64,000 nucleotides of DNA from Nemertoderma westbladi (lineage: Eukaryota > Animalia > Xenacoelomorpha), in NCBI GenBank assembly GCA_032718475.1, contig JAUCBJ010008796.1, forward strand, positions 1 to 64,000. The letters are read 5' to 3'. The notes under the pieces are model-generated. The model did not search any database. It was not told the origin of the DNA and saw only the letters and a program-made list of their open reading frames with translations. Positions 2,741 to 52,115 of the stretch are shown one piece after another; the stretch's first letter is position 1, and the number at the start of each line of letters is the position of its first letter. Position numbers and translations under genes: made by a program.

Positions 2741-2752
2741 TCTTAATTTTAA

Positions 2753-6562: not shown

Positions 6563-6573
6563 AGTTCTGTCAC
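6563..6573 (-). promoter_or_regulatory. Non-tRNA primer-binding site of A (GTGACAGAACT)
   Basis: Directly follows the LTR-terminal CA on the minus strand; 9/9 (10/11) complementary to LTR segment 6752-6762. Confidence 0.65.
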
Positions 6574-21308: not shown

Positions 21309-21319
21309 GTCGTAAACTG
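21309..21319 (+). promoter_or_regulatory. Non-tRNA primer-binding site of B (GTCGTAAACTG)
   Basis: 10/10 complementary to LTR segment AGTTTACGAC 21074-21083, plus one G:U pair. Confidence 0.7.
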
Positions 21320-21356
21320 CCAGCCTACTAACAAACTGTGACTGCAAGACAAAAAG

Positions 21357-25986: not shown

Positions 25987-26040
25987 AATAAATAACAAGC
26001 AAATAATAAAATAAGTAGTAAGATAGTAGAAAGTACTAGT

Positions 26041-26792: not shown

Positions 26793-26809
26793 TAGAAAGT
26801 ACTAGTAGT

Positions 26810-27290
26810 AGGTAGTAGGTAGTACGTAGTAGGTAGTACGTAGTACTAAGTAAGGTACATAGTACCATAGAAGTTAGAAGTTGTGGGCACTGAGGGCGCC
26901 ACATAGGAGCAGTAGTAGGGTACATAGTACCGTAGAGGTTGTGGGCCGCCCGAAAGCGCCACGTAGTAAGAGAGTAGATGGTATGGTATGTAGGTATACC
27001 ATAGAAGTAGTAGCAGAGGGGTTGTGGGCATCGAAAGCGCCACGTAGTAAGACAGTAGAGGGTATGGTATTTAGGTATACCATAGAAGTAGTAGCAGAGG
27101 GGTTGTGGGCACCGAGAGCACCACATAGTAAGAGAGTGAAGGGTATGGTACGTAGGTATAACATAGTAGCAGTATTAGGGTACATAGTACCATAGAAATT
27201 TGAAGTTGTGGGCATCGAGAGCGCCACGTAGTAAGAAAGTAGAGGGTATGTAGGCATACCATAGTAGTAGAAGGGTACATATTAAGAAGG
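26810..27290 (+). repeat. Degenerate tandem array inside B, related to the array in A
   Basis: Recurrent GTTGTGGGCAnCGAnAGCGCCACGTAGTAAG, the reverse complement of a unit in A. Confidence 0.8.
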
Positions 27291-27309
27291 AAGTAGGAAG
27301 GTAGATAGG

Positions 27310-28034
27310 ATGATAGCACAGACAGGGGGCAACATAGATAAAATTAAAATAGAACTAAGAAAAATTGGCACTTTGGGGGTGGTAGAGAACACAGGACATT
27401 GTGGAGCAGTAGGGATGGGCCAGCTCATGGGCCTTATCTGCCACAAGCCGATGGACTGGGGCAAGTTCCGGGAGGAGCACGGAGCGGGCACAGGACATTG
27501 TGGAGCAGTGGCGATGGGCCAGCTCATGGGGCTTGTCTGCCACAAGCCGATGGACTGGGGCAAGTCCGAGAGGAGTACGGAGCGGAACTGGCAAACTCGC
27601 TGAAATGGGGAGCGAGGCCAGGGAAACAGGAGATATATCAGATCCGAAGGGGAGCGATAAAGATATATCAGAAGAGATATATCTTACAGGAGGATTGGAT
27701 AATGATAGGTTTATTAAACCTATTCATGGCCGTGGTTATCGGAAGAGAGCCGTCGGCATTTCTGCTATCAGGAGCACCTCTAAATCACAGGAGAGCCTTT
27801 AAGGTGGCCTTTGAGGGTCTTGTAGACCACCCGGGGCTGAAGGGCGAGTTGGTGTACTACGATAGCCGACACCTAGTGGACAGAGAGGTGGATACACCCT
27901 ACAAGATGTGGAAGAAGTTGGTAGCATATTTGAGGACCTATGGGGATTCCCTCAGGGGAGTTGGCAAAGATACCAAAAGGACACCAACCATAGATCTGGA
28001 AGGCAAATACGAACTCCTAAGTGCAAATAATTAA
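27310..28034 (+). pseudogene. Remnant of an additional 3' ORF in B, with a ~99-bp tandem duplication and a frameshift
   Basis: ORFs 27310-27603 and 27399-28034 join by a 1-nt deletion in the second repeat copy; HRRAFKVAFEGLVDHPGL resembles HRYYPGRAYEGVYAFHPYL in ORF2 of C. Confidence 0.45.
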
Positions 28035-28744
28035 GTGCAATTAGTATGTACGTATGTAGATAATTAATCAATATAAATATATAACCAATATAAGTACTAT
28101 AGTCATATATATAACCTTTCCCAATTAACTACTGGGACTGGGGACCAATTGACTATGACAGGAGGACGAGACACTAGACGAATCACGCTTCTTGAGTACG
28201 ACGGCACAAAAGGGGAGGGTGAGGCTCGTCAGGGGTAGGTGGAGACATTAGACGGATCCCATTTCTCAAGTGTGGCCACACTAATGAGAATGTGGGAGCT
28301 TTACAGGAGGGTATGGAGGATAAAAACAAGGTATCTATTGAGTATAAGAGAAAGGGGGGAAAGGGGAGGTGTTGGCGCGTGAGGAAGTGAGATGAGTGCA
28401 ATTCAAGCGTGGGGAGCGAGCAGTGAGAGAGGAAGAGTCCCAAGGGACCGAAGAGAGAGTAAGGGACAGCGAGGTCCGTGAGGAAGATTAGAGTGAAGTT
28501 GTAGAAAATTGTGTGAAGAGAGAGCACAATTGTCTCAAACAGAGACACCAGATACCTTGATGCAACATAGCTCACGATTGCAGCAAGGAGTGGTAGCAAT
28601 AACACACCCAGGGGGGGCAGTCTGGAAAGCCGACCCCGAGAAAAGAACTCCACCCCACACCCGATATTAGATTGGGTTCCAGCAGCATTGAAGCGCACTT
28701 AAGGTTGATGCTATCTTCTCACCGGGAATATAGCATGGGGGCGG

Positions 28745-29406
28745 TGTGAGCGGATTCAATTCCATTACATTATCCACCCGAAAATGGGACCAGTGGCATT
28801 TTACTAATATAGTTGGGGATACGAGATTACCAATAATAATCTCGCCTCATAACCAACTTTGGGGGGGGGGGCGACACAAGCCCTAAAGCCACAGAGAGAG
28901 GTGAGAGGTCAAACCACCTTGGAGGGAGAACACAGCTAGTAGAGGCTAGCGGCGGGGGGAAACACTCACAGGGAGTGCCAAAGTGACAATTAGTATATTA
29001 GCCAATAGCAGGCAGGGAAGCACGTGATCAGAGATAGGAAAGCATCCACTGGGTACAGAAGGCCAATTAGAGTAAGAGGTGAAACCAATATCTGTGTGTA
29101 TCAATCATATATTATTCTGTATTACTGATTTACCAGTCAGTTGATCAATCACAGAGTTGCAGACCAGTCATAGTTTACGACCGTCGCCAACCAATATCTA
29201 TTACTGATTTACTGCTGTCATTCTGTATTGTGGTATCAATTACGTACTGATTCTGTGCTATTATCATTCGGAACATTAACATTGAGAACCGCAAACTCTG
29301 TTATTTTCCCCGATGACCTTTGGCCAAACAACAATAGCTCAACAGCCCTAGCAGAATGGTGACGCGTACTAAATCTAATCCGGTCGGGATCTACGATCCC
29401 GTCACA
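28745..29406 (+). repeat. 3' LTR of B (662 bp)
   Basis: Direct repeat of the 5' LTR with a few substitutions; followed by the TSD. Confidence 0.95.
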
Positions 29407-31977: not shown

Positions 31978-32072
31978 ACTACCATATAGGTTACTACTTC
32001 CTAATAACAGTTCAGTTCTGTAACAGCTCAGATATTTTTATCTTAATTGATGACAAATCCTTTAAAATTCTC

Positions 32073-33282
32073 TGTAAAAGCTTTTGTGGGATACTGATTC
32101 GTTTGCCTTGCTGGCCAGTTCCCCCCCGGTCGCTAGAATACTCTAAAAGGGATCTATAGGTAAAATAGTGCAAGCTACCAGCTTATTGGCTGATGTGCTG
32201 TACTGAGGTATCTGGGTTCCGTTTAATCGGCCAACCAGCTTAGAGAGGTTGCCTTAGCCCTGCTGTCCGTATCGGCCAATAGAATTTGAGTGGGCGTTGA
32301 TTTCGACCTATCCCAGAGCTACTGAACTGAATTTTCCTATCTCACTGCTCATCCTCTGTGTTGGACGGGAGCTTCGGGGAATAAGGGTAGTTGGTATCCT
32401 CGTATAGGGATTCTAGTCTTATGATTCTTCATATGATTCTGTTGTTGTGTTCCCATTTTTCGCCATAACACCGGCTTTTGGGAAGAACTCTAGTAAAACT
32501 GCTTAAATTATCGAAGGTATAAACTGTTATCCTATCAACCTACCATCCTACCTACTAATCAATCAATCAACCTGATTCTGTTGCTAATCATATTGTTTGT
32601 ACTGTTATTTACCGTCAGTTATTAATTGTATCTATTTGTTGATGGAAATATTGCTCTTTGGAGAATACGGATAAATCACCCAAATTTCCCAATTTTCTTG
32701 ATACACTACAGGTTAGAGAGACAGGCTATATATAACAATTGCGATTTATATTAATGTGGTGTGTATTGAATCTAATGTTATTTAGCAGACCCTACATGAG
32801 TCAATTGCTGCTCTCTTTATGTGTGATCAAATTTACTGACGGTCGGCAGAATAGTGTGCATGATTGTAATTGATAACAAAGTATTTCCTAAAGAATACGC
32901 TTTATACTTTAATCATAAGCAGTATCGTTGCGTTTAGTATAAGTCCTAGTCCTGTTTAAATAGATAGAGCGCCACGTCCTAAAGGAACTGTTAATATTTC
33001 CCGAAAGCCAATAATATCTGTCAGAAATTAATTAATAACGATCAATCGAATAATACAGTAAGTTTACACTGCAACCTTACACTGCAATAATAAAATTTAA
33101 GCAGCCGAATTCAGCCTCCCGGGTGTAGATCCATCGGGTGAATGATCGCGCATGGGCTGTCTTCGGGTAATGTTTTGTTTAATAGCATAAAATATTGTCG
33201 TATGCTAAAGGTGTTTTAATTAACTAGAAGACATATAAATTTTGGCAGGTTGAACTGCTAAAGGTCTTCAAAAGCGCGAACA
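32073..33282 (+). repeat. 5' LTR of C (1210 bp)
   Basis: TGTAAAAGC...GCGCGAACA; CCAAT boxes near 32184 and 32276; AATAAA near 33089. Confidence 0.97.
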
Positions 33283-33295
33283 ATAACAGTTTATA
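33283..33295 (+). promoter_or_regulatory. Non-tRNA primer-binding site of C (ATAACAGTTTATA)
   Basis: 13/13 complementary to LTR segment TATAAACTGTTAT 32518-32530. Confidence 0.75.
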
Positions 33296-33348
33296 ATCTT
33301 ATTGCAGTAAGCAATAAGGTTGCAAATACCGTAGTGACCGGTAACCTG

Positions 33349-33480
33349 AACCGGTACTTCTGTAGGTCAGTAGGCCCAACTGCCAGAACCGGTACTGCTG
33401 TAGGTCCGTAGGTCCAACTGCCAGAACCGGTACTTCTGTAGGTCTGTAGGCCCAACTGTCCTAACCGGTACTGCTGTATA
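33349..33480. repeat. 38-bp tandem repeat in the leader of C
   Basis: AACCGGTACTnCTGTAGGTCnGTAGGnCCAACTGCCAG in about 3.5 copies. Confidence 0.85.
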
Positions 33481-33703
33481 AGTACATTAGTATTATTCGA
33501 ATTTGATTAGTGTATACCGGTAGGTCTTAATACTTAATCAGGGACTGCAGCCCTGAATTTTTATTGAGATTCTACTTATTTCTGTCGGTTTTATTTACTA
33601 GTAGGCTAATATTGAGCAGAAGGCGTGTGACCCTGCTCAGATTGTTCAGATAATTGTAGGGTGAGCTGCTGTCTGACTGTTGTTGAGTTTGGAGAGATTA
33701 CGG

Positions 33704-34222
33704 CGTGTGTAGAGTTTGTCTGATAAAGTGCCGTTAGTAAGTTGGGGCAGCCATATGCTGTAAGGTCAATCCCCTCTTAAAGAATAAGTCGTACTACCGT
33801 GTTAGAACGCATACTAACTAACTGTTTCAGAATCTGCATATACTGTAGTTTATTTAGGCTTGATCGTAGTCTGCCAGTGTTTTAGCCTGTGTTTGTTTGT
33901 GTGGTCTGTTCAGGTACCGTAATAGTTATTACTCAAATATTTTGTAGGCTGGATTGTTGTCTAGCTATTCTTAGGCCTGAAGGGATTGCTACGTGTGTAG
34001 AGTTGTCTGATAAAGTGCCGTTAGTAAGTTGGGGCAGCCATATGCTGTAAGGTCAATCCCCTCTTAAAGAATAAGTCGTACTACCGTGTTAGAACGCATA
34101 CTAACTAACAGTTTCAGAATCTGCACATACTGTGGTTTGTTTAGGCTTGATAGTAGTCTGCCAGCGTTTGGTTTGTATTTTGTTTGAGTATTCTGTACGG
34201 GTAGCGTAATATTTATTATTCA
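33704..34222. repeat. Tandem duplication (period about 288 bp) in the leader of C
   Basis: 33704-33935 matches 33992-34222. Confidence 0.85.
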
Positions 34223-35534
34223 GAGTTTATGCGATTATTCGCAACATTCATGTCCCCAAGTTTATCCCTACAGTAATTGTGCTTGTTATACATACCGTTA
34301 TAGTTAAATTAACCCCGGTACTACACGGGCTGCTTGGCGTAGGACAAGACTGGTGACATTGTGCCCTGGTCACTCCAGCAGATGCCGTGGTTCTTTTAAC
34401 TGTTCAAGTATATTTAACTACTGATTATTTGTTATACCGGTACTTGTACCTAATTTAGGGTTTAGTGTACAGTGCTTTCCGAAGTAATTAGTGTGTAGGC
34501 AGTATATTTGTGTTGTAAAGTGGTTGATAGGCACATTCGTTAGCTCTATTAACTTCTAGGTAGGAACAATCCGTGATACATAACGTAGTACCTATAGCGA
34601 TACGGTTATAGGTCGTCAGGCGGTGGTATTTTCCTATCTGGACAGTGCAATATATTTACTACTACTTATTATTTAAATACCGTAGTATTCTGTCAGTTGT
34701 AATAACCAGAAATCTAACCCTTTGTTAGACTGGTTTGTAGACTTCCTGTAAAATTACCCTAAAAAATTCGTACGTAATATTTTGTTGTGTTTAATTAGAG
34801 AATTAATCTCACCCGTATCGTAAGTAATTTGTAGTATTAAGTAACTTAGGTAAATTAGAATTATCAGTTTTAGTGTCAAATAAATAGCACTTCACTGAGA
34901 GCGCACAGCTTCCGTGTAGTGACCCCCAGAAATAATAACATTTATTTCAAATATTGACAAAACCCCTTTTAAACGGGTATATATCTATTATAAATCAACT
35001 CAAACGATTTATAAATAGTAGGCCTGCCATACAACAACTAGGTCTCAATATCAGTTGGACTACTGCTTAAATAACGGTAATAAAGTAAGTTAAAGTAACC
35101 AAGTAACCTTAAAATATTCAGAAATTCAATTATTCTAAAAATAATTGACATACCGGTACTTACCATAGGCTTATCCTATTTATTTCTATAAATTCGAGCT
35201 GAAATCATACCGGTATTCTGTAATTAATTCTAGTTCATAATTATACTTATATATACTATAAGTGTCAGCTGTATACCGGTATTCAAGATGGGCCTATTAT
35301 ATATTTATATATATTTGTGCTAAAATTACATACCGGTACTCTGTGACAAATCTAGTCTGTAATAATACTTATATATATATTATAAGCATACCGGTATTCT
35401 AATATATTGTATATATATCACGTTACACTGAGTAACGGTATCGGTAATAAATCGCTAGGCTTGCGGTCATACTGAATTACCAGACTTGCTTTAACTGAAA
35501 CTATAGTAGTAGACATTCAACTGTATAGCTAAAC

Positions 35535-35984
35535 ATGTCTGACACTCAGCAAAACCTGTCAGACAGTCTGATCGATACAACTATCTGTGACTCAGATAGG
35601 AGTGTGGAGCGATTAAGAAAGGAGTTCAGCTCACCTCCTACTGCAAAAAAGGTCATCCCTCCAGTAGTATCAGACCCTAGGCTAATCCACCATAGGTCCA
35701 TCATAGGCACTCGGGCACAGGTCAAACGGAACCAAGAGGCAGTTGTCCTATCGCAGCAGCATCTTGGTCAAGACCCTACTTCCCAGCGACCCGATAGCTC
35801 CAGTAGTTCGGATACTGTAGAGCTGACCCCCGAACGCGGAGTGCAGATGGCTGCTACAGTCTACTCGGACCCCCTTCTCACCCTTCCTGCTGCAGTCTAC
35901 TCGGACCCCCTTCTCACCCTTCCTGCTGCAGTTAACTATATTCATTGCGGTGGAGGAACATCAAGCCGACTGGGCGAGAAATAA
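35535..35984 (+). CDS. Upstream ORF or out-of-frame N-terminus of gag in C (149 aa)
   Basis: ATG in AAACATG context; overlaps the +1 frame, which is open from 35827; contains a 36-bp duplication. Confidence 0.55.
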   Translation: MSDTQQNLSDSLIDTTICDSDRSVERLRKEFSSPPTAKKVIPPVVSDPRLIHHRSIIGTRAQVKRNQEAVVLSQQHLGQDPTSQRPDSSSSSDTVELTPERGVQMAATVYSDPLLTLPAAVYSDPLLTLPAAVNYIHCGGGTSSRLGEK

Positions 35985-38900
35985 GCGAGCGACCCAAGAT
36001 AATTATGCGGGATACGCCAGGGAAGAATTAATGTCTATTGTCGAGTCACAATGGAACTTTCCCGGACTCGGACTCCCGTTGGACCTGTCCGAGGCTACTT
36101 GGGAAGATATACACAGGATGGGAGTGGCAAAAGATACAATGGATCCAGCTGTTTGGAAGAGGTCGGCATCAGGATATGTGCAGGGATTCTTCGGCTCCTT
36201 GGAGCGATTGGAAGAACAACTGTTTCGACAACCTCAAGGACCTCAAGAGCAGGAAGAGCTGCTATACCAAGTACGTGAAAGAACCCTACGCATACGACTA
36301 ATCCTCTCAGCCTTTGAGGAAACTTCCAAAAGAAGACAGGACACGTCGCTGCAGGTTGCTGTCAAAACTTGGTTACATCGGGTAGATCTCCAAGTACAGG
36401 AAACGGCCCAGTGGAAATCCCAGCTGGCTGAGAGATCAACCTATGAAGAACAAACTGATGTCACCCTTTCTCAAGCGGAAAGCGAAGAGACCGCCGAGAA
36501 ACCGCGAACTAGAGACGCTATCGACATTTATTTGTCCGACTATCAGCGATTCCTAGGAGACGAAGAGTTGAGTAGACGGCTGTCTGGACTTTCCCCTAAT
36601 AGTGAAGGAACCAAGCTTGTGTTGGACTCAATCGATGCCGAAATGTTAGCTGCAAACCAAGCTGAATGTGATGAAAAACTCCGCCTCACTAGAGTCCGAG
36701 AAGAACAAGTAAAGAAAGAATGGATAGAGAAAAGAAAGGTGGCAGCAGCAGCGGCGGCAGAAGCAGAAGCCAAAAGAAAGGCGGCAGAAGCAGAAGCCGA
36801 AAGAAAGGCGGCAGAAGCAGAAGCCGAAAGAAAGTCAGCAGAAGCAGAAGCCGAAGCCGAAAGAAAGGCGGCAGAAGCAGAAGCAGAAAGAAAAGCAGCA
36901 GTGGCAGAAGCAGAAAGTAGAGCTTCTGAGGAGACTATCCAATTGGAGTTGAAAAATCTGCAAGAGACGCAAGACAGTATAAATAAACAGTTTACTGCTA
37001 ATCAAATGCAGATGATGAGAAAATCTACTCCCAAGCGCCAGGGATACACATCCTCGGAGGAAGGCGAGACTACCGATCCTGAAGGCGGAGGAAATAGATC
37101 TCATCTAAGTAGGCGTAGAAAAACATCTTACCGCCGCAAATTGCCTGATTTGCCCCCAGCTGTTAGAAGACAGCTAGCTAGCACAGACTTGAGTAGTATA
37201 GAACCCACAGCCCAAAGTATTAAGGTCCAAAGACTCTCTACAATAGTTGATGAGCCTGAGATAATTAGGCCTGTCGTTCCCAAGGTCACTTCTGTGTTAG
37301 AGACCCCTGTACTTCCAGAGCTTAACTCTAAATTCCCTTTACATAGTACTACACTGCCTGTACCCGGTGGAACAGTCCAAGAGAATATCCCTGTCCAGAT
37401 AGCAGAGAGAGAAATCAAAAATTTGTCTCCCGTCGTCCCGCGTCAGCCCGCTACTATGTTGGCGACTCCCGCTTCGGCGGTTGAGTGGGTGGAAGAGGGA
37501 CGGCGGGGGATGAATCTCCTGCTAGGACAAATGCAGGAGACTGTCCACCAACTTAAGGGAACAGTGAGAGAAGGCAGAGCAGAGTTGCAAGAAGTGCAGC
37601 AAAGTATCGCACTAGAACGCGATAAATTAGTCAATATACAAAGGGGCATACCAATACCCCCTGTAACATTGTGTCAACCTGTTAGGTCTGAAGTATTACA
37701 TGCGCAAGGTGTGGAGCCTACACGCATCTATACTGCTAGTGAAGTTGAAACTCCTATAACAAACCCTATTAAGGGTGATTATAGACCTGTTATTAATGAT
37801 ATTCCCTATAGACCTGATAATGATCCGAGAAATTTATATACCGATAATTCGATATTAAATAACACGATGGCCCAAGAAAGCTTTACGCGTCAGATGGCTA
37901 GAACAGAAGCCCGCCAAGCGGTCAAAGTGGGAGAGATCGTCAAATTCAATGGAGATGAGATGAAATGGTTACCTTTCAACGAATATTACAAAGATAGCAT
38001 ACAGAACTCTGTACTATCTAACGGAGAGAAACTTAGATTCCTCATCAAGTGCTTGGAAGGACCTCCCAAGTTAATGGCGTTAAAGTTTATTGGACATCCA
38101 GATGGGTTAAGACAAGTTTGGGATACATTAAACATCAGGTATGGTAACAAGGATAACATAGCTAAGTATTTGTATGCAAAATTAGTAGCCCCTCGACACT
38201 TCCTTAGTAGCGGGATTATAGAGTTTTCCGATGAGATTCAAGAGATCTGTAGACAATTGGACTGGTTAGGTAAGTCTCATGAATATCAGAGTTCCATGGT
38301 TATTGGAGCCGTAGTCTCTACTTTACCAAAGGGTGGAGTATGTACACGCTGGGACAAGAAAGTGTTGTACATGAATGAACAACAACGACGAAGTCCTACC
38401 ATGGCTGATCTCATGTCTTTCTTAGATGGTGAAGTCAAACTACAACTCATCAAGCAGTCCAGAGAAAAAACATCGGAAAATAAGGTAAGTGAGAAACCCA
38501 CTTCTAGGAGAAGGGTAACACCGGTGTGTTACACTGACGACGGCGAAAGCCAAGCTTCTCAAGAAGAAGACAGCGGGAAAGACACCGAACGTTCTTACTA
38601 TGTTGACAAAACCTCCAAGGACGTAAGTAAATACAAGGCTCGAACCAACAATAGGAGAGAACAGGTTGCTAAGACCCCTCCTCAGTCTCCTAGCAGAATG
38701 CGCGGAAGAAAGCCCGAAGAAAGAACGAGAGTGCATCAGACTACCCAAGGTAAAGTAAGTAACATAAAACCTAACTGTGCGCTGTGCGACGGGACCCACC
38801 GTTTGAGTGCGTGTGCGGAATTTCTAAAGAAATCCCTTGTAGACAGACGTACAGTTGTGTGGGACAAGCGGTTATGCTATAATTGCCTCAGACCAGGACA

Positions 38901-41900
38901 CCAACGGCGAACCTGTTACTCCGACATAAAGTGTGAAAAGTGTGGTGCGAAACATCACATCTTGTTACATAGTGAGTTCGAACGAGACAAGCAGAGTCAG
39001 GTAAGTGAGTCCGAACTACATGTCCAATTCAGTGATGTAAACGACACTGATCAGGAGTCTGAGATGGAAGGGTTCTATACTGACGAATTCTCCGACGCCA
39101 ATGAATCCTGTTATCTAATAAATACCGCGGTGTATCGAGCACTTACTTACGAAAAGGACATCAACGATGAGTTTTCCCCAACTAATTTCGCCAAACAACC
39201 ATCTTGGAAAGCTCCAGCTTCCAACGTAGGAATCAGAGAATTTCCTGTAGTTCAGGTAAGAGTTCACGGTCTTAACAAAAGCTACATAGTGAATGCCCTC
39301 CTGGACTCCGGCAGCACAGGAACATTCATCGATCAAGAACTAGCCGAAGATATCTTTGCTGGACAACCCAAGTTCCGGACTAAATTGAATATGTCAGGAA
39401 TTATGCAGGTTTGGAAATCTACCCTAACGGCAGATTACTATGTAGGTGTGTTGTCCACCCCCCAGGATAAGTTAGGAACACAAGGCATAAGGTCAGTAAA
39501 AATGGTGGCTATAAAGAACTTTGCTACTACTCAAGCAGACCTTTATAATTGGGACGAAGATGAGAGCGTCCAACATCTGAAGATACCTCGATTCCAGACA
39601 GATTATCCTGGAGTGCAAATACTTATCGGCCAAAACGCGCACGAGGCGCTCGAAACATTAGAGAAACGGCCTGCTCAACCACAACCACTGCAAACCTATG
39701 CGGTAAGAACTAGAGTAGGTTGGTACTTTACTGGCCCTTCCCGTAGAACTCTCGAAGAGAGAATGCCACACGAACAAATATATCAAGGAAGTGATTGGGA
39801 AGTGGAAAGCAGTGAGGTGGACGAACTAACTGAGGGAACACCATACTCCTCAGATAATGACGACATCTACCAACTCTTCGAAGAAGAGAACACAATTGAC
39901 CTACTTACAGAGAATCAAACTTGGAAAAACCAAACGAACCTATGTCAACTGATTCGCCCAACGGAATCCATTATTTATAATGACGAACTTAATGACGAGG
40001 TAGAGCGCTACAACGCTAGAACTCGGGACGAACTCGCCGTACGATTCTTTACCCAAGAATTAGTAGAACCCAATTCATACGACAAAGCCCTGTCAATAGA
40101 AGAAGAAAGAGCCAAGCAAATCCAGGAAACAACCACACGTTTTTTAAAAGATCAAGGTAGATATGAAATCGGACTACCCTTCCGAAAACGTGAACCCAGA
40201 TTTATAAATAACAGACCCTTGGCTGAGAAAAGAATCAATCAATTACATCGACGTCTTACGGCAAACACTTCAGCTAAGGAAATGTACCAAACTCAGTTGA
40301 AGAAATTTATCACAAAGGGATATGCGGAGCGAGTACCGGAAGGAACTCCAATAACTGAAAGAACTTATTATCTAACACATCATTACGTTCCCAAGCCCGG
40401 TAAACCCCATGAAGTACGAGTCGTATTCGATGGCTCTGCTCTATATATGGGCCAATCCCTTAATTCCGAGTTGTTACCAGGACCCAATTTACTACAATCT
40501 TTGTTGGGAATACTTTTGAGATTAAGACAATATTCCATCGCGTTCGCTTCTGATATCGAAGGAATGTTCTTACAAGTCAAGGCGCTGGAGAGAGATAGAG
40601 ACATCCTGAGATTTCTGTGGTGGCCTGAAGGAGACCTCAACCAGAAACCGGTGGAGTACTGGATGACCATCCAGGCTTTTGGGATCATATCTAGCCCTTC
40701 CAATGCCTGCTCCGTGGTGCGAACCACTGCGAATGACAACCGAGACTCCTTCTCCAAAGAAGTGATAGACAACATAAAACGCAATATATACATGGACGAC
40801 AATTTAAGGTCCCTTCCATCAGTAGAAGAAGCCATAGCTGTCGCGAAAGGAACGGTAGAGTGTTTGAAAAGAGGTGGATTTCGACTGACGAAATTCACTA
40901 GTAACTCCCGTGAGTTTCTGGAAGCCATACCGGTAGAGGATCGCGGAGCGAAAGACCTAGACTTAATAAAAGACGATCTTCCTGAAACCAAGACGCTAGG
41001 CTTGAAGTGGGACACGGAAAGAGATATCCTGTTTTTTCAGCTAAAACAGCGAGATAATCCAGTTCGGACCAAACGGATTTGTTTAAGTATCCTGAGCACT
41101 TATTTCGACCCATTGGGATTTATTAGCCCAGTTATATTGATTGCTCGGAGTTTAGTACAACAAATGTGGCTTGAAAACCACTCGTGGGACGATCCCCTCA
41201 AGGGAGAATTATTAAAGAAATGGATGAAATGGGAGGACTCGCTACCTGCTATCGAGAACTTTATAATTTCCCGTTCATATTTTGGTCATGTTCTCCCTAC
41301 GTATTCCTATCAACTCCATGTATTTGGAGATGCCAGCGATATGGGAATCGGTATAGTAGCATACCTGCGAGTCGAAACTCCGGATGGAATCAAAGTTGCC
41401 TTGGTTACCTCTAAGGCATTGATTAACAACAAGCTTAAGGTTCCTCGGGCGGAGTTAAAAGCAGCCTTATACGCTACAGCTATCGGCCGGAATGTAACGG
41501 AACAGATCGATTATCCACTGGAGAAAACTGTTTATTGGACCGACGCTTTACTTGTGTTGGAATATATAACCAATGAAGTCTGTCAGTTCAGCGTCTTTGT
41601 TACTAACAGAGTGGCCATTATTCTTAGTCGCACAACGATAGATCAATGGAGACATTGCCCTGGTACGATTAACCCAGCTGACATCGCCTCCAGAGGAGCA
41701 ACTCAACAGGAACTGATAGATACCCCTGACTGGTTGTGTGGACCCGACTTCCTGAGCAAGGAAGAGGATGAATGGCCTCCTCACCTTACTACGGCTGAGA
41801 TTAGACAAGCCAAGGGAGCGGAGAAAGTCAAACCCAAAATTAGAACAAGTAAATCGAAATTATTTAAACCGACAATCGATCTATCTGTATTACATACTGC

Positions 41901-43611: not shown

Positions 43612-45477
43612 TGCAAGGGAGTTACTGAAGGCCCTCGTGTCTTGCGAACCATGAATTGACATGGTGCCGTGGTACCGTCTTGTCGGCCTGTTGCCGTACT
43701 GCCAGTCCTGTACACAGTAGGGGTGGTGACTTAGTGTGATCTGTGGTTTATGTGGTTTATTTGGTAGGTCTATGTTTGGTATGTATGAGTTGACCAGACT
43801 CTGTACTGTCTCTGATTGGTTGCCAAAACGTGTTTTTTCCCAGGGTAGCACTATTGGAATGGAGGTGTTGCATCGGAATGGACAGGTTCTGATGATTCTG
43901 TTGGTACTACTATTGGAATGGAGGTGGCACCCGGAATATCGGCTGCAAGGAGGGGTTGGTGTTGTAGTGTGGTCCGAGTGAATGATACTCTGGAATCTGT
44001 GGTTTGTGTGTGTACGTGGTATACGTGAGTGTATGTATGGCCACTGCGAGTGGGTATGGGAACCCTTACCGGTTGGTTCAGTCGCCGCTGGTTATTAGTA
44101 GGACAATATTTTACTGCGCCCCAGCATACTTTGTGCACACAAAGTTATTTTACCCTGTCGGTAAAATAAGGTACTCTAGACTCTTTATCAGTCTATACAA
44201 TTTTGTCCCCTCTGATTTTGTCACCGATTTTGTCCTCCCCGATTATGTCCTCTGTGTGTGCGTGGTATGCGTCAGATTGGTGTTTACCTTTTGTGTACTT
44301 GATTATCGAACATCTGTTGAGTACACGTGTACAGTGACTGGTAAGTGGTTACTTGTTCCTAGCTTTCGAGCTAGTCAGTATTGTTTGCGGAACCGACTTC
44401 CCCTCAATACTGCCGGCGAGGCGGGTGAAAACGTGTCAAAATTCCAATGTGGGTAGCGCAAGCCCGCTTGGGACAAGACCGTCGGTTTGGCTCAAGGGCG
44501 ACCTTGATGCTCGATCGCTATCGACTGGTCCACCCGCCGGTTGACTCTCTGAGTTGGCTCAATGTACAGTCAGGCCACAGCAAGTTGACAGTAGCCGACC
44601 ATCTGGCTACACCGACGAGTTGTGCCGGTGTGATCGGGGGATTGAAAAGTGAACCCGGGAAGCATCGGGCTACCCTCCGGCCCGGTCTGATAAAAACATC
44701 AGTCGGACTGGCCCCAAGGGTGGTGGGACAGCGTCCGCCTCATGGGTGCGCCTCGGAGTCATCAGAGAGGAGCCCAGAAGGACGCAAGCGATAATCTTTG
44801 AGACGCAACAACTCAATCGCCCAGTTGGTCGTTTATGTTTACTGGAAAGAGACAGAGAACTCTCTGGAAACTATGGAAGACAAGACACTCTTCCCTCGAC
44901 CACCTCCCTAATTCCTCAAACATCTAGGGACTCCCAAACGTGATACGTCTGGAGTGGGTGTATGACTATGTTATTTATCTATTTTATTACATTTTATATG
45001 CGAACTTTATTATGTACTTTATTATAATCGTTTTTATTCAATTTTATTTAGTGGAATGTTATTTTAGGGATTATTTGGTAGATTAGTGCAATATATTAGT
45101 GTTTATTACGTACATAATCACTTATAATATATATTTAGTGCGACGGCGGGAAATAATTATTTTTTCTCTTCCCTTACTGTCCGTATCATATTATAAATAC
45201 GTGACTACAGTAAGATGAAATGTCCGTACTTCTTAAAGTACAATAAAGCCACTACTATATTTAAGTATTATTGGTAGGCAGAGTATTAGGAATGCAAAGT
45301 TCAGATCCTCGTGTCTCGGCTAAACCAAGCTCTGGGTAGACCTTGGAAACGACTTGCCTCTTCACACTGACATTGCTTCGTGCGATATTGCTCTTCTACC
45401 TTATAACAAATAATACATATAGTAGCGTGATGTCCCTCTAACAGTAGCGTAAATCGCAAATAAATCTGTTAAACTTT

Positions 45478-45763
45478 TTGACCATCTGTAATTCTAGTCG
45501 ATTAAGATATCGTGGCACCCACCGATATACTTGAAAGACAAATCCTAGAATCAGTGGTTAACGTCCCCAGACAAGTTCTGGAATAAATTGGTGCCCATCC
45601 TAAATATTAATTTAATATTTATTAAAATCTGTAAAATCCCGATCCTTTAAAATTTTTAGTCAATTAAGATATCGCGCAGTATTTACCGATATTCTTAGAA
45701 GGACTATTTTATAGAATTAAGGATCCTAAGTCCCCAGATATGCTCTGGAATAAAATTTGTGTC
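45478..45763 (+). ncRNA. Two tandem copies of a putative structured cis-acting RNA between pol and ORF2
   Basis: Both copies have nested stems, a CCAGA-n5-TCTGG hairpin and a possible loop-tail pseudoknot, with different but pairing outer stems. Confidence 0.5.
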
Positions 45764-46567
45764 AATTTAACATCAAATAATAAAATTCACGGGAATAAAT
45801 TTAAATTCATATTCAAATGAATTTCATAAATTGTCATTTTGCGCAATTTATAACATTCCCAAAATTCCAGTAATTAATAGATCATGGGAGCGGAGATTCA
45901 TATTGAGTGTACTAGAGTGCGAGAATCTCCAACATATAGTCAATAGCCGATAAAATTTATAAAATCATGCATAAAGAGGATATTGACAATTAAAGAATTA
46001 CTATTAAATAACATCCCAGATCTGTATGCATGAGAATTCCCCTAATTCTACCGCTAGTTTTCCATAATGTCACCATGGCAACACCCACGCTAGAATTAGA
46101 AGCAAGTTAAAGGAACAATAAAAAGCTTACCCCATTGCGTAGCATAAGAGTATACATAACGCACTATTAGTATCCAAGGATACATAGTAATAACGTGACA
46201 TTCTGGAAGACACTGACTAACGGACAAATGGCATGCATGTGTGCAGTAAGCAATGATTGTATGGAATTTGTGCGTTTATAGGTGAATGTTACTACTAAAG
46301 TGTGTTTACAGTAGCTAATCGCAATTGTAAAGTAGCCCTAACTCTACCGAGATAACCTCAAGTGGATTCAAGCCTTGGGGACGGACAGTGGTGGGACTTG
46401 TGCCGGTTATCGTTGTCGTGCTGTTGCTACATGTTGGCATAAACACTGCGACAACGGTACATCGGCGCTGAGAAACCCACTGTCCGGGGGCAAAGCCTAG
46501 TAGGCAGCGACGCCCGCTTGCCTAAAATATTAACTCATATTGATATTAATAAACTCAGATAACAGAT

Positions 46568-49500
46568 ATGACGGAATTGATAGAAGATGACCTTGGTATC
46601 AGGGAGCGATATACTCTACCTTTACAAGCGTTTGTGGATAGCTTGATACGCGGTGAAGCCGATCCGACTATTACGGAGGACGATGGTCGTTATATCGAAC
46701 CGCCGATGTCCCAGGAACAACTTACGCGTGAATTGGACTATAGAAAATTCACCGCTCGCTATACGAATCGTAATGGTACGTATATGGACTTCTTAACTAC
46801 CGGCCATCCTACCGATTTAAATGATACGGAAGATGTAGACACCGAAAGGGAAATGGTTTTATTTAAATATCATGCCCAGCGGAATCGTAATGATAAACCG
46901 AGAATAGAACACGAGAACTCTATTCGCAACCTACTCGACAGAGAAAACGTTGAAGAACCCGATAAGCGCCTCAACTTCAACGACTACTTGGAATTTTTGA
47001 GAGAAACCTATCTCAATATTGCCAGTCAACAGAACCTAGAGACTCGATATCCTCAAGGTATACATCACGATCCCATAGTAGAACTCAAACGACTCTATTT
47101 CACCATGATGTATCTTACCGCAGATCGTCCACTGCCTGTTGTCCCGGACAGCTTTGAACAAATGGAAGAGTATTGCAAAACTGGAGAACGATCACCAGCG
47201 TTTCCTCTGCAGGACGTACGTCTTTGGTATTATTGTGACTCATGTCCTAGACCTAACCAGCAAACGGAAAGACATAAACATCCGCGGAGACGTTGTGCTA
47301 AACACAGTTTTACGCGTTATACTTACGGGAGTTTCGAGCGAAACCTGTTCGACGTATCACCTACGATCGCCCGTCTAAAACGATCGCTAAATAAACCTAT
47401 GATCAGAGTTCCGGAATACTCGGTCAGGCCTCCCCATTTCCCCGTGAGACCTCAAACTCTTGATCCTAACAGTATCACTGATCCTCCCGAGTTATACTCA
47501 CTGTTCAAAGATTTGGTGTTACCCGAGCAGTTAATCGGTGGTGTTCCAGCGGTAGGTTCGTTAGATATTCGACCATCCTATTTAACCGGATTGGGACGCG
47601 GGCATCTAACATCGCCATTTAATCCTTACAATCGACCAGGATTAACTCCGATACAACCTGCCACGGAAATCGAGGAGAGTGTCATCAGAAACGCTTTAGA
47701 CGCCATCCGACAGAAAATCGGAAAGGGAACCCAGGATTTTCTAGAGAAACGTAAATTACAGCAGCAGGTCCAATCGGTGAAAGAGTTAGCCTTGCCGCAG
47801 TTTGATAGAGAAATCCAAAACCTCGAAGAGGACATCGAGCTTGGACATACGTATTCTCTACAGGAGTTTCTAGAAGAACGCTTACAGAAACAAGCGGAGG
47901 AAAATCAACTAGAGGAGAAACATACGGAAATGGATGAGAGAGAGGAAGCCGCTTTAGCCCAACCCGAAGCTCAGATACTCATAACCGATCTCTACTCTAA
48001 AACCGTCCGTCATCCCTCGATGGTTCCGCATTTCGGAGACAAACTTTTCGCAAAGATACAACCTCAACCGGTTGATATCGGCATAAGGTCGCAAAATCTT
48101 ATCGCTGACGCTCCTATGTTACAGCGTCCGCCAATCGAGGCCGCTCGAGTTGACGGTATACTCGTTGAACCTCCGGACAATCGAGCGGATCTTGTCCGTC
48201 GTATGGTACACGATGTCAACATACGCGCTAGACCTTTACAGAACTCTTTTTATGGAATTAAAGATCACCCTTATTACGTTAATCTGACTCAATATTATAT
48301 GGTAAAACCAGAAGATCCGACGCATAATTTAAAGTTTCTACCACTAATAAATCCTCTGGACATTGTCGAACTCGAACAATTGCAAAAACATCTGGATCAG
48401 TTAGTAAAGGTAAACTCATTTCGAAAACCATATAACGTTTCTCGAATAGAGAAGGATACAGAACCTCCTTATAATCTCGATGGATTTATTAAAACTCGAT
48501 TAGTCCATTGGAATCTAGACGTAATATTCGAGGAGGAGAAAATACAAAGATATGGAAATGTGGAGACGTATACCACTCGATACATGAAGTATAGTGATCT
48601 CCCTGACGCTAATCAATGCGCCACCTTGTGGCATCCAGTAGGGATGACCCTCGAGAACGCCACCAAAGAGTGGAATGAAACTCTTAATATCATTGAGATG
48701 TATGGCGTTGTTACTTACGATAACGAAGGTAGCATTCCAATCGGAGAATTAGGAACTACGCGCATGATACACATACGCGGATTAGCTGGTTCCACTCACG
48801 TGTTTACGCGAGCGTGTTCCGACGTGGTCGATTATTCCTTTGAAACTCTCACCGAAACGCAAAAGAATCTCCGACATGGACAATTCGAACTCGCGCAGCG
48901 TTACGTCATTGACACCGAACGCAAACCGGCCATGGGTATCGATGGATCGATGTTACCCCAGCCCGTTCTCGAGATGTTATTCAACGAAAGAATCATTAAA
49001 ATCGGCTCAGCTGTTTACGGGGATCTCCAAAACGACTTTCGGAATATGGAAAATATCCCCTATCCTTTCGTGGATACTCAGCTGATAGCTCCTTGGGCCG
49101 AAGGCCGAGGTTTCTTTCGCACCATGTATGCTAATGCGTCTAGCAACGTTACAAAGGTGCAACGAACTTCCATCGGACATCTTGCCTTTCAGGAATACGG
49201 ATGTAATTTCAAGGTCGGAAATCCCATCAACTATCAACAAGTATACGGAGACCATTATTCTCGATTATACTTTGACGGACCGTTGACCGCACCTGGCGCC
49301 GTGTATAGCTTCATGAGTGTTCCACTCCGTCCCTCCTTAGCTATCTACACGATCTTCGAAAACACCGCACTTTCCGGTTGGCTAGCCGATGTGTGCAGTC
49401 GTACTATACGCGCCCATCCATTAATCCTTGGGACCAAACTCGCTAAGCTAGATGAACATAATAAATTCATCCGCTTTGAATGTTTCCGACGGTTTTTAAC

Positions 49501-50821
49501 CCCGTTTCGCAACGTGGATAGCCAATTCAAAGACCGCGCTTTGACCAAGCTCAGCTTAAGAGACTCGGCTGCGGAGAAGTTAGATAGCGCTGGATTTGCT
49601 ATTTTCAAAGACGTTTGTATAATAAACCTGCACTCCTCGGTTATCCAAAGACCTCGGATCCCCACAGGTTATTCTGTCGTGGAAATTCAGACGGTAGGTC
49701 CACTTGAGGAGACGGCCATGCCTACCTCAACTATACAAGGGGAAGACGAACCCATATGTTTAGAATCTGAAGAGATTCAGCCCCCCACGTCTCGGAGTAG
49801 CGATAGCGACTACATATTGGAATGGTATCAAGGTCCACAGTGTCTTACTGCGTATGATTATCGCCATGCCAATTATGTTTCTCGACAACGTTGTCGGCTG
49901 TGCGCATCGAGAGACCATATTACGTCTATGGACACCAACGATCTCTGTTCCTATTTCCACGAGCAACCGTCGATGGAAATCTATTGTGCATATTGTCGGC
50001 TTAATAATTTGCATATTTTTGCTGTCTGCCCCCAATTTATGACTCAATGCCATCATTGTCAATTAAAAGGACACGCCAGCTTTGATTGTCCATTTAATCA
50101 TGATTTAGAGAGCGTAGATGAAATGATTGTACTACGTTATATCAGAGCTTGGGAAGCGAACGCTGATTTACATTGTGATTCACGCCATCGCTATTACCCT
50201 GGACGCGCTTACGAAGGAGTTTATGCGTTCCATCCTTATTTGTTTGCCTCCGTCGAGCAGAAATCACGCCTATCAAGTTATGAACTACTGAAGCGCGTTG
50301 GAGAATGTATTTCAACCAAATATGTACGCAAATTTCTCAGGAGCATTAATCCGAGTGACATCAATTCTTACAACTTAATAAACTTTATCCGTCAAGATCC
50401 GGACTATGGAGACTTATTTGTCAACTCATACCCCGAGTTACAGGAAGTGTATCGACGGCCTTACGAGTATCGAGCCCGCGAACGCGAGTTGGAAAGAACC
50501 ATTAAACCAAGGAAGTTTCTAACTACCTATGGTCCACCCACGGCCCTCGTTCAGACCACTCGTAAAGGACCCGTAAGAGCGGCTGTCTTGAAACGAGCTC
50601 TCAAAGCCGTTAGACCCCTCTCCCCGGACGTTGATGTCAATCGACCCGGTACTTCGACCGGCGGATATACCGATCGTAATCCCATACCTTCTGATGCAAT
50701 CATATTGCACCCTTCACCCAGGAGTTATAGCCCTCCTTGTAAAGTGGCTCGCCCCAAAGAGAAAAGGACTCTTGCTAGCTTTAAAAAACTGCGTAAACGC
50801 CGTCCGCGCAAGAAAGACTAA
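46568..50821 (+). CDS. Accessory ORF2 of C (1417 aa): N-terminal Cys/His domain, coiled coil, DEDDy-type 3'-5' exonuclease, Zn-knuckle cluster, basic tail
   Basis: Intact ATG-TAA ORF inside the LTRs; VVTYDNEG, LPQPVLEMLFNERIIKIGSAVYGDL, FVDTQLIA, SIGHLAFQEYG, PLRPSLAIYTIFE; CRLCASRDH, CAYCRLNNLHIFAVC, CHHCQLKGHASFDC; KKLRKRRPRKK. Confidence 0.8.
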   Translation: MTELIEDDLGIRERYTLPLQAFVDSLIRGEADPTITEDDGRYIEPPMSQEQLTRELDYRKFTARYTNRNGTYMDFLTTGHPTDLNDTEDVDTEREMVLFKYHAQRNRNDKPRIEHENSIRNLLDRENVEEPDKRLNFNDYLEFLRETYLNIASQQNLETRYPQGIHHDPIVELKRLYFTMMYLTADRPLPVVPDSFEQMEEYCKTGERSPAFPLQDVRLWYYCDSCPRPNQQTERHKHPRRRCAKHSFTRYTYGSFERNLFDVSPTIARLKRSLNKPMIRVPEYSVRPPHFPVRPQTLDPNSITDPPELYSLFKDLVLPEQLIGGVPAVGSLDIRPSYLTGLGRGHLTSPFNPYNRPGLTPIQPATEIEESVIRNALDAIRQKIGKGTQDFLEKRKLQQQVQSVKELALPQFDREIQNLEEDIELGHTYSLQEFLEERLQKQAEENQLEEKHTEMDEREEAALAQPEAQILITDLYSKTVRHPSMVPHFGDKLFAKIQPQPVDIGIRSQNLIADAPMLQRPPIEAARVDGILVEPPDNRADLVRRMVHDVNIRARPLQNSFYGIKDHPYYVNLTQYYMVKPEDPTHNLKFLPLINPLDIVELEQLQKHLDQLVKVNSFRKPYNVSRIEKDTEPPYNLDGFIKTRLVHWNLDVIFEEEKIQRYGNVETYTTRYMKYSDLPDANQCATLWHPVGMTLENATKEWNETLNIIEMYGVVTYDNEGSIPIGELGTTRMIHIRGLAGSTHVFTRACSDVVDYSFETLTETQKNLRHGQFELAQRYVIDTERKPAMGIDGSMLPQPVLEMLFNERIIKIGSAVYGDLQNDFRNMENIPYPFVDTQLIAPWAEGRGFFRTMYANASSNVTKVQRTSIGHLAFQEYGCNFKVGNPINYQQVYGDHYSRLYFDGPLTAPGAVYSFMSVPLRPSLAIYTIFENTALSGWLADVCSRTIRAHPLILGTKLAKLDEHNKFIRFECFRRFLTPFRNVDSQFKDRALTKLSLRDSAAEKLDSAGFAIFKDVCIINLHSSVIQRPRIPTGYSVVEIQTVGPLEETAMPTSTIQGEDEPICLESEEIQPPTSRSSDSDYILEWYQGPQCLTAYDYRHANYVSRQRCRLCASRDHITSMDTNDLCSYFHEQPSMEIYCAYCRLNNLHIFAVCPQFMTQCHHCQLKGHASFDCPFNHDLESVDEMIVLRYIRAWEANADLHCDSRHRYYPGRAYEGVYAFHPYLFASVEQKSRLSSYELLKRVGECISTKYVRKFLRSINPSDINSYNLINFIRQDPDYGDLFVNSYPELQEVYRRPYEYRARERELERTIKPRKFLTTYGPPTALVQTTRKGPVRAAVLKRALKAVRPLSPDVDVNRPGTSTGGYTDRNPIPSDAIILHPSPRSYSPPCKVARPKEKRTLASFKKLRKRRPRKKD

Positions 50822-50899
50822 CTGTTTAGAGTATTTTTATATTTTAGAAACTGTGATTTTGTATATTTTATAGACTTAAATCCCATTTTCTGGGAGCGG

Positions 50900-52110
50900 T
50901 GTAAAAGCTTTTGTGGGATAACTGATTCGTTTGCCTTGCTGGCCAGTTCCCCCCCGGTCGCTAGAATACTCTAAAAGGGATCTATAGGTAAAATAGTGCA
51001 AGCTACCAGCTTATTGGCTGATGTGCTGTACTGAGGTATCTGGGTTCCGTTTAATCGGCCAACCAGCTTAGAGAGGTTGCCTTAGCCCTGCTGTCCGTAT
51101 CGGCCAATAGAATTTGAGTGGGCGTTGATTTCGACCTATCCCAGAGCTACTGAACTGAATTTTCCTATCTCACTGCTCATCCTCTGTGTTGGACGGGAGC
51201 TTCGGGGAATAAGGGTAGTTGGTATCCTCGTATAGGGATTCTAGTCTTATGATTCTTCATATGATTCTGTTGTTGTGTTCCCATTTTTCGCCATAACACC
51301 GGCTTTTGGGAAGAACTCTAGTAAAACTGCTTAAATTATCGAAGGTATAAACTGTTATCCTATCAACCTACCATCCTACCTACTAATCAATCAATCAACC
51401 TGATTCTGTTGCTAATCATATTGTTTGTACTGTTATTTACCGTCAGTTATTAATTGTATCTATTTGTTGATGGAAATATTGCTCTTTGGAGAATACGGAT
51501 AAATCACCCAAATTTCCCAATTTTCTTGATACACTACAGGTTAGAGAGACAGGCTATATATAACAATTGCGATTTATATTAATGTGGTGTGTATTGAATC
51601 TAATGTTATTTAGCAGACCCTACATGAGTCAATTGCTGCTCTCTTTATGTGTGATCAAATTTACTGACGGTCGGCAGAATAGTGTGCATGATTGTAATTG
51701 ATAACAAAGTATTTCCTAAAGAATACGCTTTATACTTTAATCATAAGCAGTATCGTTGCGTTTAGTATAAGTCCTAGTCCTGTTTAAATAGATAGAGCGC
51801 CACGTCCTAAAGGAACTGTTAATATTTCCCGAAAGCCAATAATATCTGTCAGAAATTAATTAATAACGATCAATCGAATAATACAGTAAGTTTACACTGC
51901 AACCTTACACTGCAATAATAAAATTTAAGCAGCCGAATTCAGCCTCCCGGGTGTAGATCCATCGGGTGAATGATCGCGCATGGGCTGTCTTCGGGTAATG
52001 TTTTGTTTAATAGCATAAAATATTGTCGTATGCTAAAGGTGTTTTAATTAACTAGAAGACATATAAATTTTGGCAGGTTGAACTGCTAAAGGTCTTCAAA
52101 AGCGCGAACA
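50900..52110 (+). repeat. 3' LTR of C (1211 bp)
   Basis: Preceded by short purine tract GGGAGCGG (50892-50899), followed by the TSD. Confidence 0.97.
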
Positions 52111-52115
52111 TTCTC

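What the first reader, a model, noticed from the sequence alone, without database searches (positions are those of the whole stretch)
32073..52110. Integrated system: 20-kb, recently active BEL/Pao element combining self-priming, exonuclease and structured intergenic RNA
Seen: two long intact ORFs, LTRs differing by about 1 nt, a perfect TSD, a 2.25-kb leader and a 2.95-kb intergenic region. Known: typical BEL/Pao elements are roughly half this size or less. Inference: the features may be linked. The PBS partner is also present in the 3' LTR (near 51346-51358), so a 3'-5' exonuclease could resect the transcript 3' end back to the duplex and create the primer, an alternative to RNase H cleavage as in Tf1. 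This mechanism is speculative.
Basis: inference. Interest (0 to 1): 0.82.

Follow-up and report, generated by a model that had tools for sequence, protein, structure and literature searches.

The report
Giant self-priming BEL/Pao with exonuclease gene
This is a young, unusually long animal jumping gene of the BEL/Pao group whose primer site pairs with its own terminal repeat instead of a tRNA, so it likely primes its own copying; its extra exonuclease-like gene is probably not needed for that, and the structured spacer RNA is largely an insert that interrupts the integrase gene in this copy.

Summary
The 20,038-bp BEL/Pao element is real and young: LTRs differ by one indel and the 5-bp TSD is perfect. 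The PBS pairs over 13 nt, flush with the LTR end, with its own LTR (0 of 2000 shuffles). Two Gag-only neighbours show the same with other letters. ORF2 (1417 aa) holds a likely DEDDy-like domain plus zinc knuckles.

The 'integrated system' reading does not hold up. (1) ORF1 is not intact: a 1,270-nt segment (43521-44790) separates it from its last conserved integrase motif, and contigs in three runs skip the segment. (2) The most structured spacer RNA (z -4.6) lies in that segment. (3) Six of 13 distant relatives with mapped LTR ends have a self-complementary PBS (five only across a predicted LTR splice junction, one pair with compensatory changes), and none of 98 fetched loci encodes ORF2.

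Best reading: Tf1-like self-priming from the transcript 5' part, with ORF2 an independent accessory protein. The transcription start is unknown, so 3'-end priming is not excluded. The scan noted BEL/Pao self-priming before on other genomes; I found it in no paper searched.

The parts
32068..32072 (.). 5-bp target-site duplication, left copy (right copy 52111-52115)
32073..33282 (+). 5' LTR, 1210 nt, TG...CA
32518..32530 (+). PBS partner (13 nt, begins with a TATA-like hexamer; pairing can extend about 5 nt upstream with one bulge and a G-U pair); candidate self-primer
33283..33295 (+). PBS, flush with the LTR end, no TGG, complementary to own LTR
33296..35534 (+). long non-coding leader with a 38-nt tandem repeat and a 167-nt duplication
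35535..35984 (+). 149-codon ORF, out of frame with ORF1 and overlapping the open 5' extension of ORF1's frame; separate uORF or split Gag N-terminus, unsettled
   Evidence: no usable Pfam hit
36031..43611 (+). ORF1 Gag-PR-RT-RH-IN, 2526 aa; catalytic motifs present; its last 30 codons lie in the insert
43521..44790 (.). 1,270-nt insert of unknown origin, no TSD or TIR found, skipped by other copies; interrupts the integrase C-terminal domain
44380..44790 (+). GC-rich multi-hairpin region inside the insert (z -4.6); no Rfam match
44791..44943 (+). displaced integrase tail carrying the terminal DUF5641-type motif (44812-44847)
44944..46567 (+). family spacer (1.62 kb), AT-rich, a few local hairpins
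46568..50821 (+). ORF2, 1417 aa: unknown N-terminal half, DEDDy-like domain (about aa 715-935), three zinc-knuckle-like motifs (aa 1109-1174), basic C-terminus, no transmembrane segment
50892..50899 (+). short polypurine tract
50900..52110 (+). 3' LTR, 1211 nt, second copy of the PBS partner at 51346-51358
20681..29406 (+). neighbour E2: Gag-only BEL/Pao derivative; PBS 21309-21318 pairs with own LTR 21074-21083 (10 nt)
1..7101 (-). neighbour E1: Gag-only relative of E2, cut by the window start; PBS 6573-6565 pairs with own LTR 6760-6752 (9 nt)

Best explanation
This is a young copy of an abundant, roughly 18.8-kb BEL/Pao retrotransposon family that likely primes minus-strand synthesis with the 5' part of its own RNA (Tf1-like, probably cut by its RT/RNase H), carries an independently acquired accessory protein with a predicted DEDDy exonuclease fold, and in this copy has a 1.27-kb insert that splits the integrase tail. 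Shown: the pairing and its register, the same pairing in neighbours and relatives that lack ORF2, and the displaced integrase motif. Inferred: the transcript starts at or just before 32512-32518, folds onto the PBS, and is cut after 32530 to free a 3'-OH. Inferred: ORF2 sits in the env position and acts on RNA (exonuclease fold plus zinc knuckles plus basic tail), most likely in RNP handling or against host small-RNA silencing, not in primer making. Inferred: this copy's own integrase is impaired, so it either gained the insert after integration or was moved in trans.
For: 13-nt flush complement, 0 of 2000 shuffles. E2 10 nt (2 of 2000) and E1 9 nt (1 of 2000), each with different letters; cross-pairings between elements reach only 0-7 nt. 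Of 13 relatives with mapped LTR ends, none has TGG at the PBS start; one pairs contiguously over 11 nt (L027, 0 of 300) and five pair over 10-13 nt across a GT-AG junction in the LTR (L024, L035, L037, L082, L084; 0-2 of 300 each). L082/L084 show two compensatory changes at homologous GTGAGT donors. These elements are 5.5-7.8 kb and 0 of 98 loci hit ORF2. In E1 and E2 a TATA-like box 30-31 nt before a TCAGTT initiator lies 33-45 nt upstream of the partner. The PBS helix has mean pair probability 0.92 if the RNA starts at LTR nt 440-446. Insert. Exonuclease fold: Atlas score 0.92 to a cluster with PF01612 on 50% of members, and all ten best family hits agree. Homolog P0003 (E 1e-6) shares the exo-plus-knuckle layout. 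DEDDy accessory ORFs exist in tRNA-type positions of rotifer LTR elements (PMC5408684).
Against: No RNA data: the start site is unmapped. In this element the partner itself begins with TATAAA and the only TCAGTT initiator lies 99 nt downstream of the partner start; if that is the promoter, the partner is in U3 and present only at the 3' end. The helix probability drops to 0.0 for starts at LTR nt 400 or 272, and is only 0.11-0.16 in E1. Six of 13 relatives show no self-pairing and one (L009) is borderline. A 12-nt complement also occurred inside one LTR away from its end (L090), so LTRs hold long internal pairings. The ExoI alignment with P0003 is not significant by itself (1163 of 2000 shuffles), and both structure predictions failed. 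The joints were read at 85% likeness with sides of 22-49 nt. Many of the 98 loci are short contigs, so the absence of ORF2 is firm only for the complete elements.
Confidence: 0.55

Rival explanations
1. One reading: the ORF2 exonuclease resects the 3' end of the genomic RNA back to 51358, and that end primes at the PBS.
For: The partner begins with TATAAA and lies upstream of the only TCAGTT initiator, so it may be in U3. ORF2 keeps acidic residues at D718, E720, D819 and Y927-E931 (motif assignment by inspection). A 3'-5' exonuclease stalling at a duplex is chemically plausible (general knowledge).
Against: The same PBS type exists without ORF2. The only AATAAA is about 560 nt past the partner. 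Resection would remove that molecule's 3' R, so strand transfer would need the second packaged genome (inference). The partner in the 3' LTR is an automatic result of LTR duplication.
Confidence: 0.1
2. The primer is supplied in trans by a separate short LTR RNA (a prematurely ended or spliced LTR transcript, or an excised intron whose 5' end is the partner), trimmed by a host or ORF2 exonuclease.
For: A donor-like AG|GTA site at 32516/32517 puts the partner at nt 2-14 of a possible 195-nt intron that ends at an acceptor-like CAG at 32711. Relatives need splicing to form the partner, and in L082/L084 AATAAA follows the partner at once.
Against: No RNA evidence for the intron. The acceptor fell below my 70% pyrimidine filter. 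The contiguous partner needs no splicing.
Confidence: 0.17
3. The PBS-LTR pairing is a regulatory or packaging structure, and reverse transcription is primed by a host RNA such as an internal tRNA fragment.
For: ICTV describes the family as tRNA-primed (PMC8742986). Half-tRNA primers exist in copia elements (PMC6317226). Long internal LTR complements occur. A host tRNA set was not available to test.
Against: The pairing ends exactly at the first base after the LTR in three window elements and in L024, L027, L035 and L037 (offset 1 in L082/L084). PBS letters differ among families and change together with the partner, which a fixed host primer would not allow.
Confidence: 0.13
4. The 1.27-kb segment is a functional cassette of a subfamily (for example an IRES or promoter for ORF2), not a disabling insert.
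For: It folds well on the sense strand (z -4.6). It is laid on by many contigs in all four runs, and one joint links 42483 to its start, so it exists in more than this copy. No TSD or TIR was found.
Against: It cuts off a motif kept by 42 of 44 scorable relatives. It ends 1.78 kb before the ORF2 start. ORF2-bearing copies without it exist in three runs.
Confidence: 0.1

Closest known systems
Belpaoviridae / BEL-Pao LTR retrotransposons (Sinbad/Suzu-like aquatic lineages; clade label from recall, no reference elements in my tree)
   Same: Single Gag-Pol ORF in the order PR-RT-RH-IN with DUF1759, Peptidase_A17 and DUF5641; RT region 38-45% identical to elements of fish, cnidarians, echinoderms and molluscs; TG...CA LTRs, 5-bp TSD, short PPT.
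   Different: About 18.8 kb without the insert against 4.2-10 kb (PMC8742986, whole text read; PMC3118150 passages; its supplement row lists a Sinbad maximum of 21,008 bp, median 7,253); no tRNA-type PBS; second ORF is exonuclease-like, not env; long branch (1.38) in the RT tree.
Tf1/Tf2/Tj1 and the Tf1/sushi group; plant Tcn1 and TAR lineages (self-priming)
   Same: PBS next to the 5' LTR complementary over 10 nt or more to the element's own LTR, the criterion used in PMC6317226 (passages read); mechanism as summarised in PMC4600332 (passages read).
   Different: Those are Ty3/gypsy or Ty1/copia elements. In Tf1 the partner is the mapped 5' end of the mRNA and RNase H cleavage is shown; here neither is tested.
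DEDDy ORF3 of bdelloid Juno and Vesta LTR elements and Terminons
   Same: Accessory ORF in the env position with an RNase D-like DEDDy domain with altered acidic motif, no TM segment; function unproven (PMC5408684, PMC6431247, passages read).
   Different: Not BEL/Pao hosts. ORF2 here is 1417 aa with zinc knuckles and a 700-aa unknown N-terminal part. I recall a report of an exonuclease-like ORF in nematode Cer elements (Malik et al. 2000); this is recalled only, and one search found no paper to check it.
Giant LTR elements Burro and Ogre
   Same: Size near or over 20 kb through long non-coding parts and accessory ORFs (PMC6431247, passages read).
   Different: Both are Ty3/gypsy; no sequence relation was tested.

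Membership tests
BEL/Pao (Belpaoviridae) | Gag-Pol with PR-RT-RH-IN order and BEL/Pao-type domains | tested here: met
BEL/Pao (Belpaoviridae) | RT groups with BEL/Pao elements | tested here: met
   (519 hits at E<=1e-50; the 120 listed all carry PF05380); one search places it among them, without an outgroup from other superfamilies
BEL/Pao (Belpaoviridae) | LTRs of 0.2-1.2 kb, TG...CA, PPT | tested here: met
BEL/Pao (Belpaoviridae) | 18-nt PBS complementary to a tRNA 3' end; genome 4.2-10 kb (descriptive traits in the ICTV profile; membership rests on RT) | tested here: not met
   no TGG at the PBS, self-complement instead; 20,038 bp; PMC8742986
Tf1-type self-priming | PBS adjacent to the LTR complementary over 10 nt or more to own LTR | tested here: met
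Tf1-type self-priming | partner is at the 5' end of the transcript | tested here: inconclusive
   promoter motifs ambiguous; folding favours a start at LTR nt 440-446; no RNA reads
Tf1-type self-priming | cleavage by RT/RNase H creates the primer 3'-OH | not testable with these tools
   needs biochemistry
Tf1/sushi group (membership) | Ty3/gypsy chromovirus RT | tested here: not met
   BEL/Pao domains
DEDDy 3'-5' exonucleases | DnaQ-like fold | tested here: inconclusive
   Atlas features 0.92; P0003 has PF01612 at E 0.2; no direct Pfam or PDB hit; models unusable
DEDDy 3'-5' exonucleases | acidic residues in ExoI, II, III | tested here: inconclusive
   D819 and Y927-E931 align with P0003; D718/E720 assigned by inspection, not significant; the last D is E in both proteins
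DEDDy 3'-5' exonucleases | catalytic activity | not testable with these tools
   needs an assay

The most novel reading that the evidence does not exclude
A giant BEL/Pao lineage has captured its own 3'-5' exonuclease to make the reverse-transcription primer, by trimming either its genomic 3' end or a short LTR-derived RNA back to the PBS duplex: a primer-making route with neither tRNA nor RNase H cleavage.
Probability: 0.12. Interest if true: 0.85.

Novelty: new variant of a known kind. Interest (0 to 1): 0.55.

Why it matters
BEL/Pao elements are described as tRNA-primed and 4-10 kb long. A self-complementary, co-varying PBS in many families, partly built only across a predicted LTR splice junction, would extend self-priming to a third LTR superfamily and tie it to host splicing. 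A 1417-aa exonuclease-like accessory protein in an abundant, recently active family gives a concrete target for asking what DEDDy ORFs do for retroelements. The claimed three-part system is not the reason this matters: one part is an insert and the other two are separable.

Tried and rejected
No whole genome is held for this window, so copies could not be compared in an assembly. No RNA holder listed; X5 is only a guessed RNA run kept as contigs, so start, end and splicing could not be read. Variation among copies at the PBS and partner was not obtained. Depth differences were not used as evidence: the insert bin is low in X1, X3 and X5 but not in X4, and the tool warns that depth is no copy number. 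AlphaFold of the exo domain failed twice (pLDDT 30.2 and 28.9), so no fold search was run. ORF2 searches: none in the 5.8-billion set for aa 680-1000 within 779-2480 aa; only P0003 itself for its own domain; none in viral contigs; no Atlas hit for aa 1-690; PDB only chance hits. Single-sequence locus scans found nothing. Rfam: 0 matches at E<=1 in 32000-52200. The insert has no similar sequence elsewhere in the window and no convincing TSD or TIR, and no look-alike in earlier findings; I saw no hammerhead core by inspection. The RT tree (quick method) does not cluster the self-PBS label (3 changes, 204 of 500 shuffles as low); its labels predate the splice test, so it says little. The big element's LTR is not alignable to those of E1/E2 (scores below the shuffle maximum), so their promoter layout cannot be transferred to it. 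For 13 loci with unmapped or uncertain LTR ends, a scan gave two significant hits: L060 (10 nt, end unverified) and L090 (inside the LTR, rejected). Literature searches for BEL/Pao self-priming and for a BEL/Pao exonuclease ORF found no such report; subscription papers, Repbase and GyDB entries were not searchable.
Full report
Observation. The element spans 32073-52110 (20,038 bp). The LTRs (32073-33282, 50900-52110) align over 1210 nt with no mismatch and one 1-nt indel, and both sides carry TTCTC, so the insertion is young. ORF1 (36031-43611, 2526 aa) has DUF1759, Peptidase_A17, Integrase_H2C2 and DUF5641 and the expected PR, RT, RH and IN motifs. Its RT region is 38-45% identical to the 120 listed BEL/Pao polyproteins of fish, cnidarians, echinoderms and molluscs. 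Contigs of four runs from four studies cover all 30 bins of 31900-50950, with many divergent copies. ORF2 therefore belongs to an abundant family and is not a private capture. Of 24 listed differences in ORF1, 16 are at third codon positions.

ORF1 is interrupted. In 42 of the 44 relatives that my pattern could score (of 120), an RPxx[KR]L motif closes the integrase. P0001 lacks it and ends in 30 unrelated residues. A profile of relatives' tails finds the motif in a separate peptide at 44812-44847 (E 4e-4, the only hit above threshold among all six-frame peptides of 36000-52000). Independently, contigs in X1, X3 and X4 pass from 43517-43520 to 44790-44791 (sides 22-49 nt, 85% likeness). The segment 43521-44790 has no convincing TSD or TIR and no similar sequence in the window. 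Without it the family is about 18.8 kb, with a 1.62-kb spacer. That is still about twice the 4.2-10 kb given by ICTV (PMC8742986, whole text read), though a Sinbad maximum of 21,008 bp is listed in a supplement row of PMC3118150.

Structured RNA. 44380-44790 folds on the sense strand with z -4.63 (0 of 100 shuffles; minus strand -1.71). It lies inside the insert. In a 150-nt scan with 25 shuffles per window, 3 of 12 windows inside the insert and 4 of the 17 beyond it reach z < -2.5, so small hairpins exist in the true spacer too. Rfam gives no match at E<=1.

Primer site. The first 13 nt after the 5' LTR are the exact complement of 32518-32530, with the partner's 3' end against the first PBS base, the register that a primer needs (0 of 2000 shuffles). 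There is no TGG. Two Gag-only LTR elements in the window (E2, 20681-29406, DUF1759 at E 0.001, below cut-off; E1, its relative on the minus strand) show the same with 10 and 9 nt of other letters (2 and 1 of 2000); cross-pairings reach 0-7 nt.

Relatives. I fetched 98 BEL/Pao loci; 13 had a usable LTR 3' end (for L037 and L024 the end coincides with a contig end and is backed by a sister locus). None starts its PBS with TGG. L027 pairs contiguously over 11 nt (0 of 300). Following a lead from earlier scan notes, I tested splice junctions. L024, L035, L037, L082 and L084 (three families) pair over 10-13 nt only across a GT-AG junction in the LTR (0-2 of 300 each). At their homologous GTGAGT donors L082 and L084 differ by two compensatory changes, and the duplex energy improves from -16.2 to -23.0 and from -13.4 to -19.3 kcal/mol. 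L009 is borderline and six show nothing. The ten elements sized are 5.5-7.8 kb, and no locus of 98 hits ORF2 or P0003 by tblastn at E<=0.05. A self-complementary PBS is thus a wider BEL/Pao trait that does not need ORF2 in cis.

ORF2. Pfam and PDB give nothing. The ESM Atlas scores aa 690-1000 at 0.92 against a 3'-5' exonuclease cluster (PF01612 on 50% of members; the ten best family hits agree) and 0.92-0.94 against unnamed clusters. One homolog exists among 1.84 billion representatives, P0003 (E 1e-6), a 648-aa protein with the same exo-like domain followed by zinc knuckles. Acidic residues sit at D718, E720, D819 and Y927-E931; the first pair is assigned by inspection only. No transmembrane segment is present, so it is not env-like. 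DEDDy ORFs in this position are known from rotifer Juno and Vesta elements, with 3'-end processing or silencing roles only proposed (PMC5408684, passages read).

Mechanism. The best-supported reading is Tf1-like (PMC4600332, PMC6317226, passages read): the RNA 5' part folds onto the PBS and is cut to free a 3'-OH (inferred). The helix is predicted at 0.92 if the RNA starts at LTR nt 440-446 and at 0.0 for starts at nt 400 or 272. In E1 and E2 a TATA-like box and a TCAGTT initiator at canonical spacing lie just upstream of the partner. Against this, in the big element the partner itself starts with TATAAA and the only TCAGTT lies downstream, so the partner may be in U3. This keeps the 3'-end and trans-primer models alive. 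I give it about 0.1, a trans primer 0.17, and a non-priming role 0.13.

Novelty. Searches for BEL/Pao self-priming and a BEL/Pao exonuclease ORF found no report; subscription papers and Repbase were out of reach, and I recall but could not check an exonuclease-like ORF in nematode Cer elements. The scan itself noted BEL/Pao self-priming in seven findings on other genomes, and none on a BEL/Pao exonuclease ORF. Verdict: a real, unusually long BEL/Pao family with two interesting but separable traits; the structured-RNA part is mostly an insert; the integrated system is not supported.

Noticed in passing
window 39863-41639 and 41826-44808: Contigs of all four runs skip RT plus most of RNase H, and skip the integrase up to its tail; both skips keep the reading frame. 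This points to an abundant non-autonomous Gag-PR derivative that keeps ORF2; that both skips lie on one molecule is not shown.
   Followed up: partly
L082 and L084 LTRs; L024, L035, L037: The PBS pairs with a predicted exon-exon junction inside the LTR, with compensatory changes between L082 and L084 and AATAAA right after the partner.
   Followed up: yes
window 1-7101 (-) and 20681-29406 (+): Two related Gag-only BEL/Pao derivatives; both LTRs end in the same 12 nt with a short hairpin at the U5 end; E2 has a 228-codon unknown frame at 27348-28034 and a 5-bp TSD.
   Followed up: partly
window 43317-43652 (-): A 111-codon, proline-rich ORF starts inside the insert on the minus strand; it could be the start of another element's gag, which would make the insert a captured leader.
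   Followed up: no
window 32703 to 46350: One X4 contig joins the LTR acceptor-like region to the acceptor-like site 218 nt before ORF2 (side 23 nt only); possibly a similarity artefact or a trace of ORF2 splicing.
   Followed up: no
window 60000-63300: A further, decayed BEL/Pao gag-RT fragment with many stops (by inspection; no Pfam hit in the four ORFs tested).
   Followed up: no
window 7103-8255, 8575-9934, 18439-19326: Tandem arrays with 15-, 50- and 7-nt units; the first abuts the 5' end of E1.
   Followed up: no
window 53331-53925: Long near-perfect inverted repeat (146 nt at 99% plus 70 nt at 94%), MITE-like.
   Followed up: no
L080-L098: BEL/Pao elements in 19 loci of prokaryote genome bins, most likely host contamination of those assemblies.
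   Followed up: no
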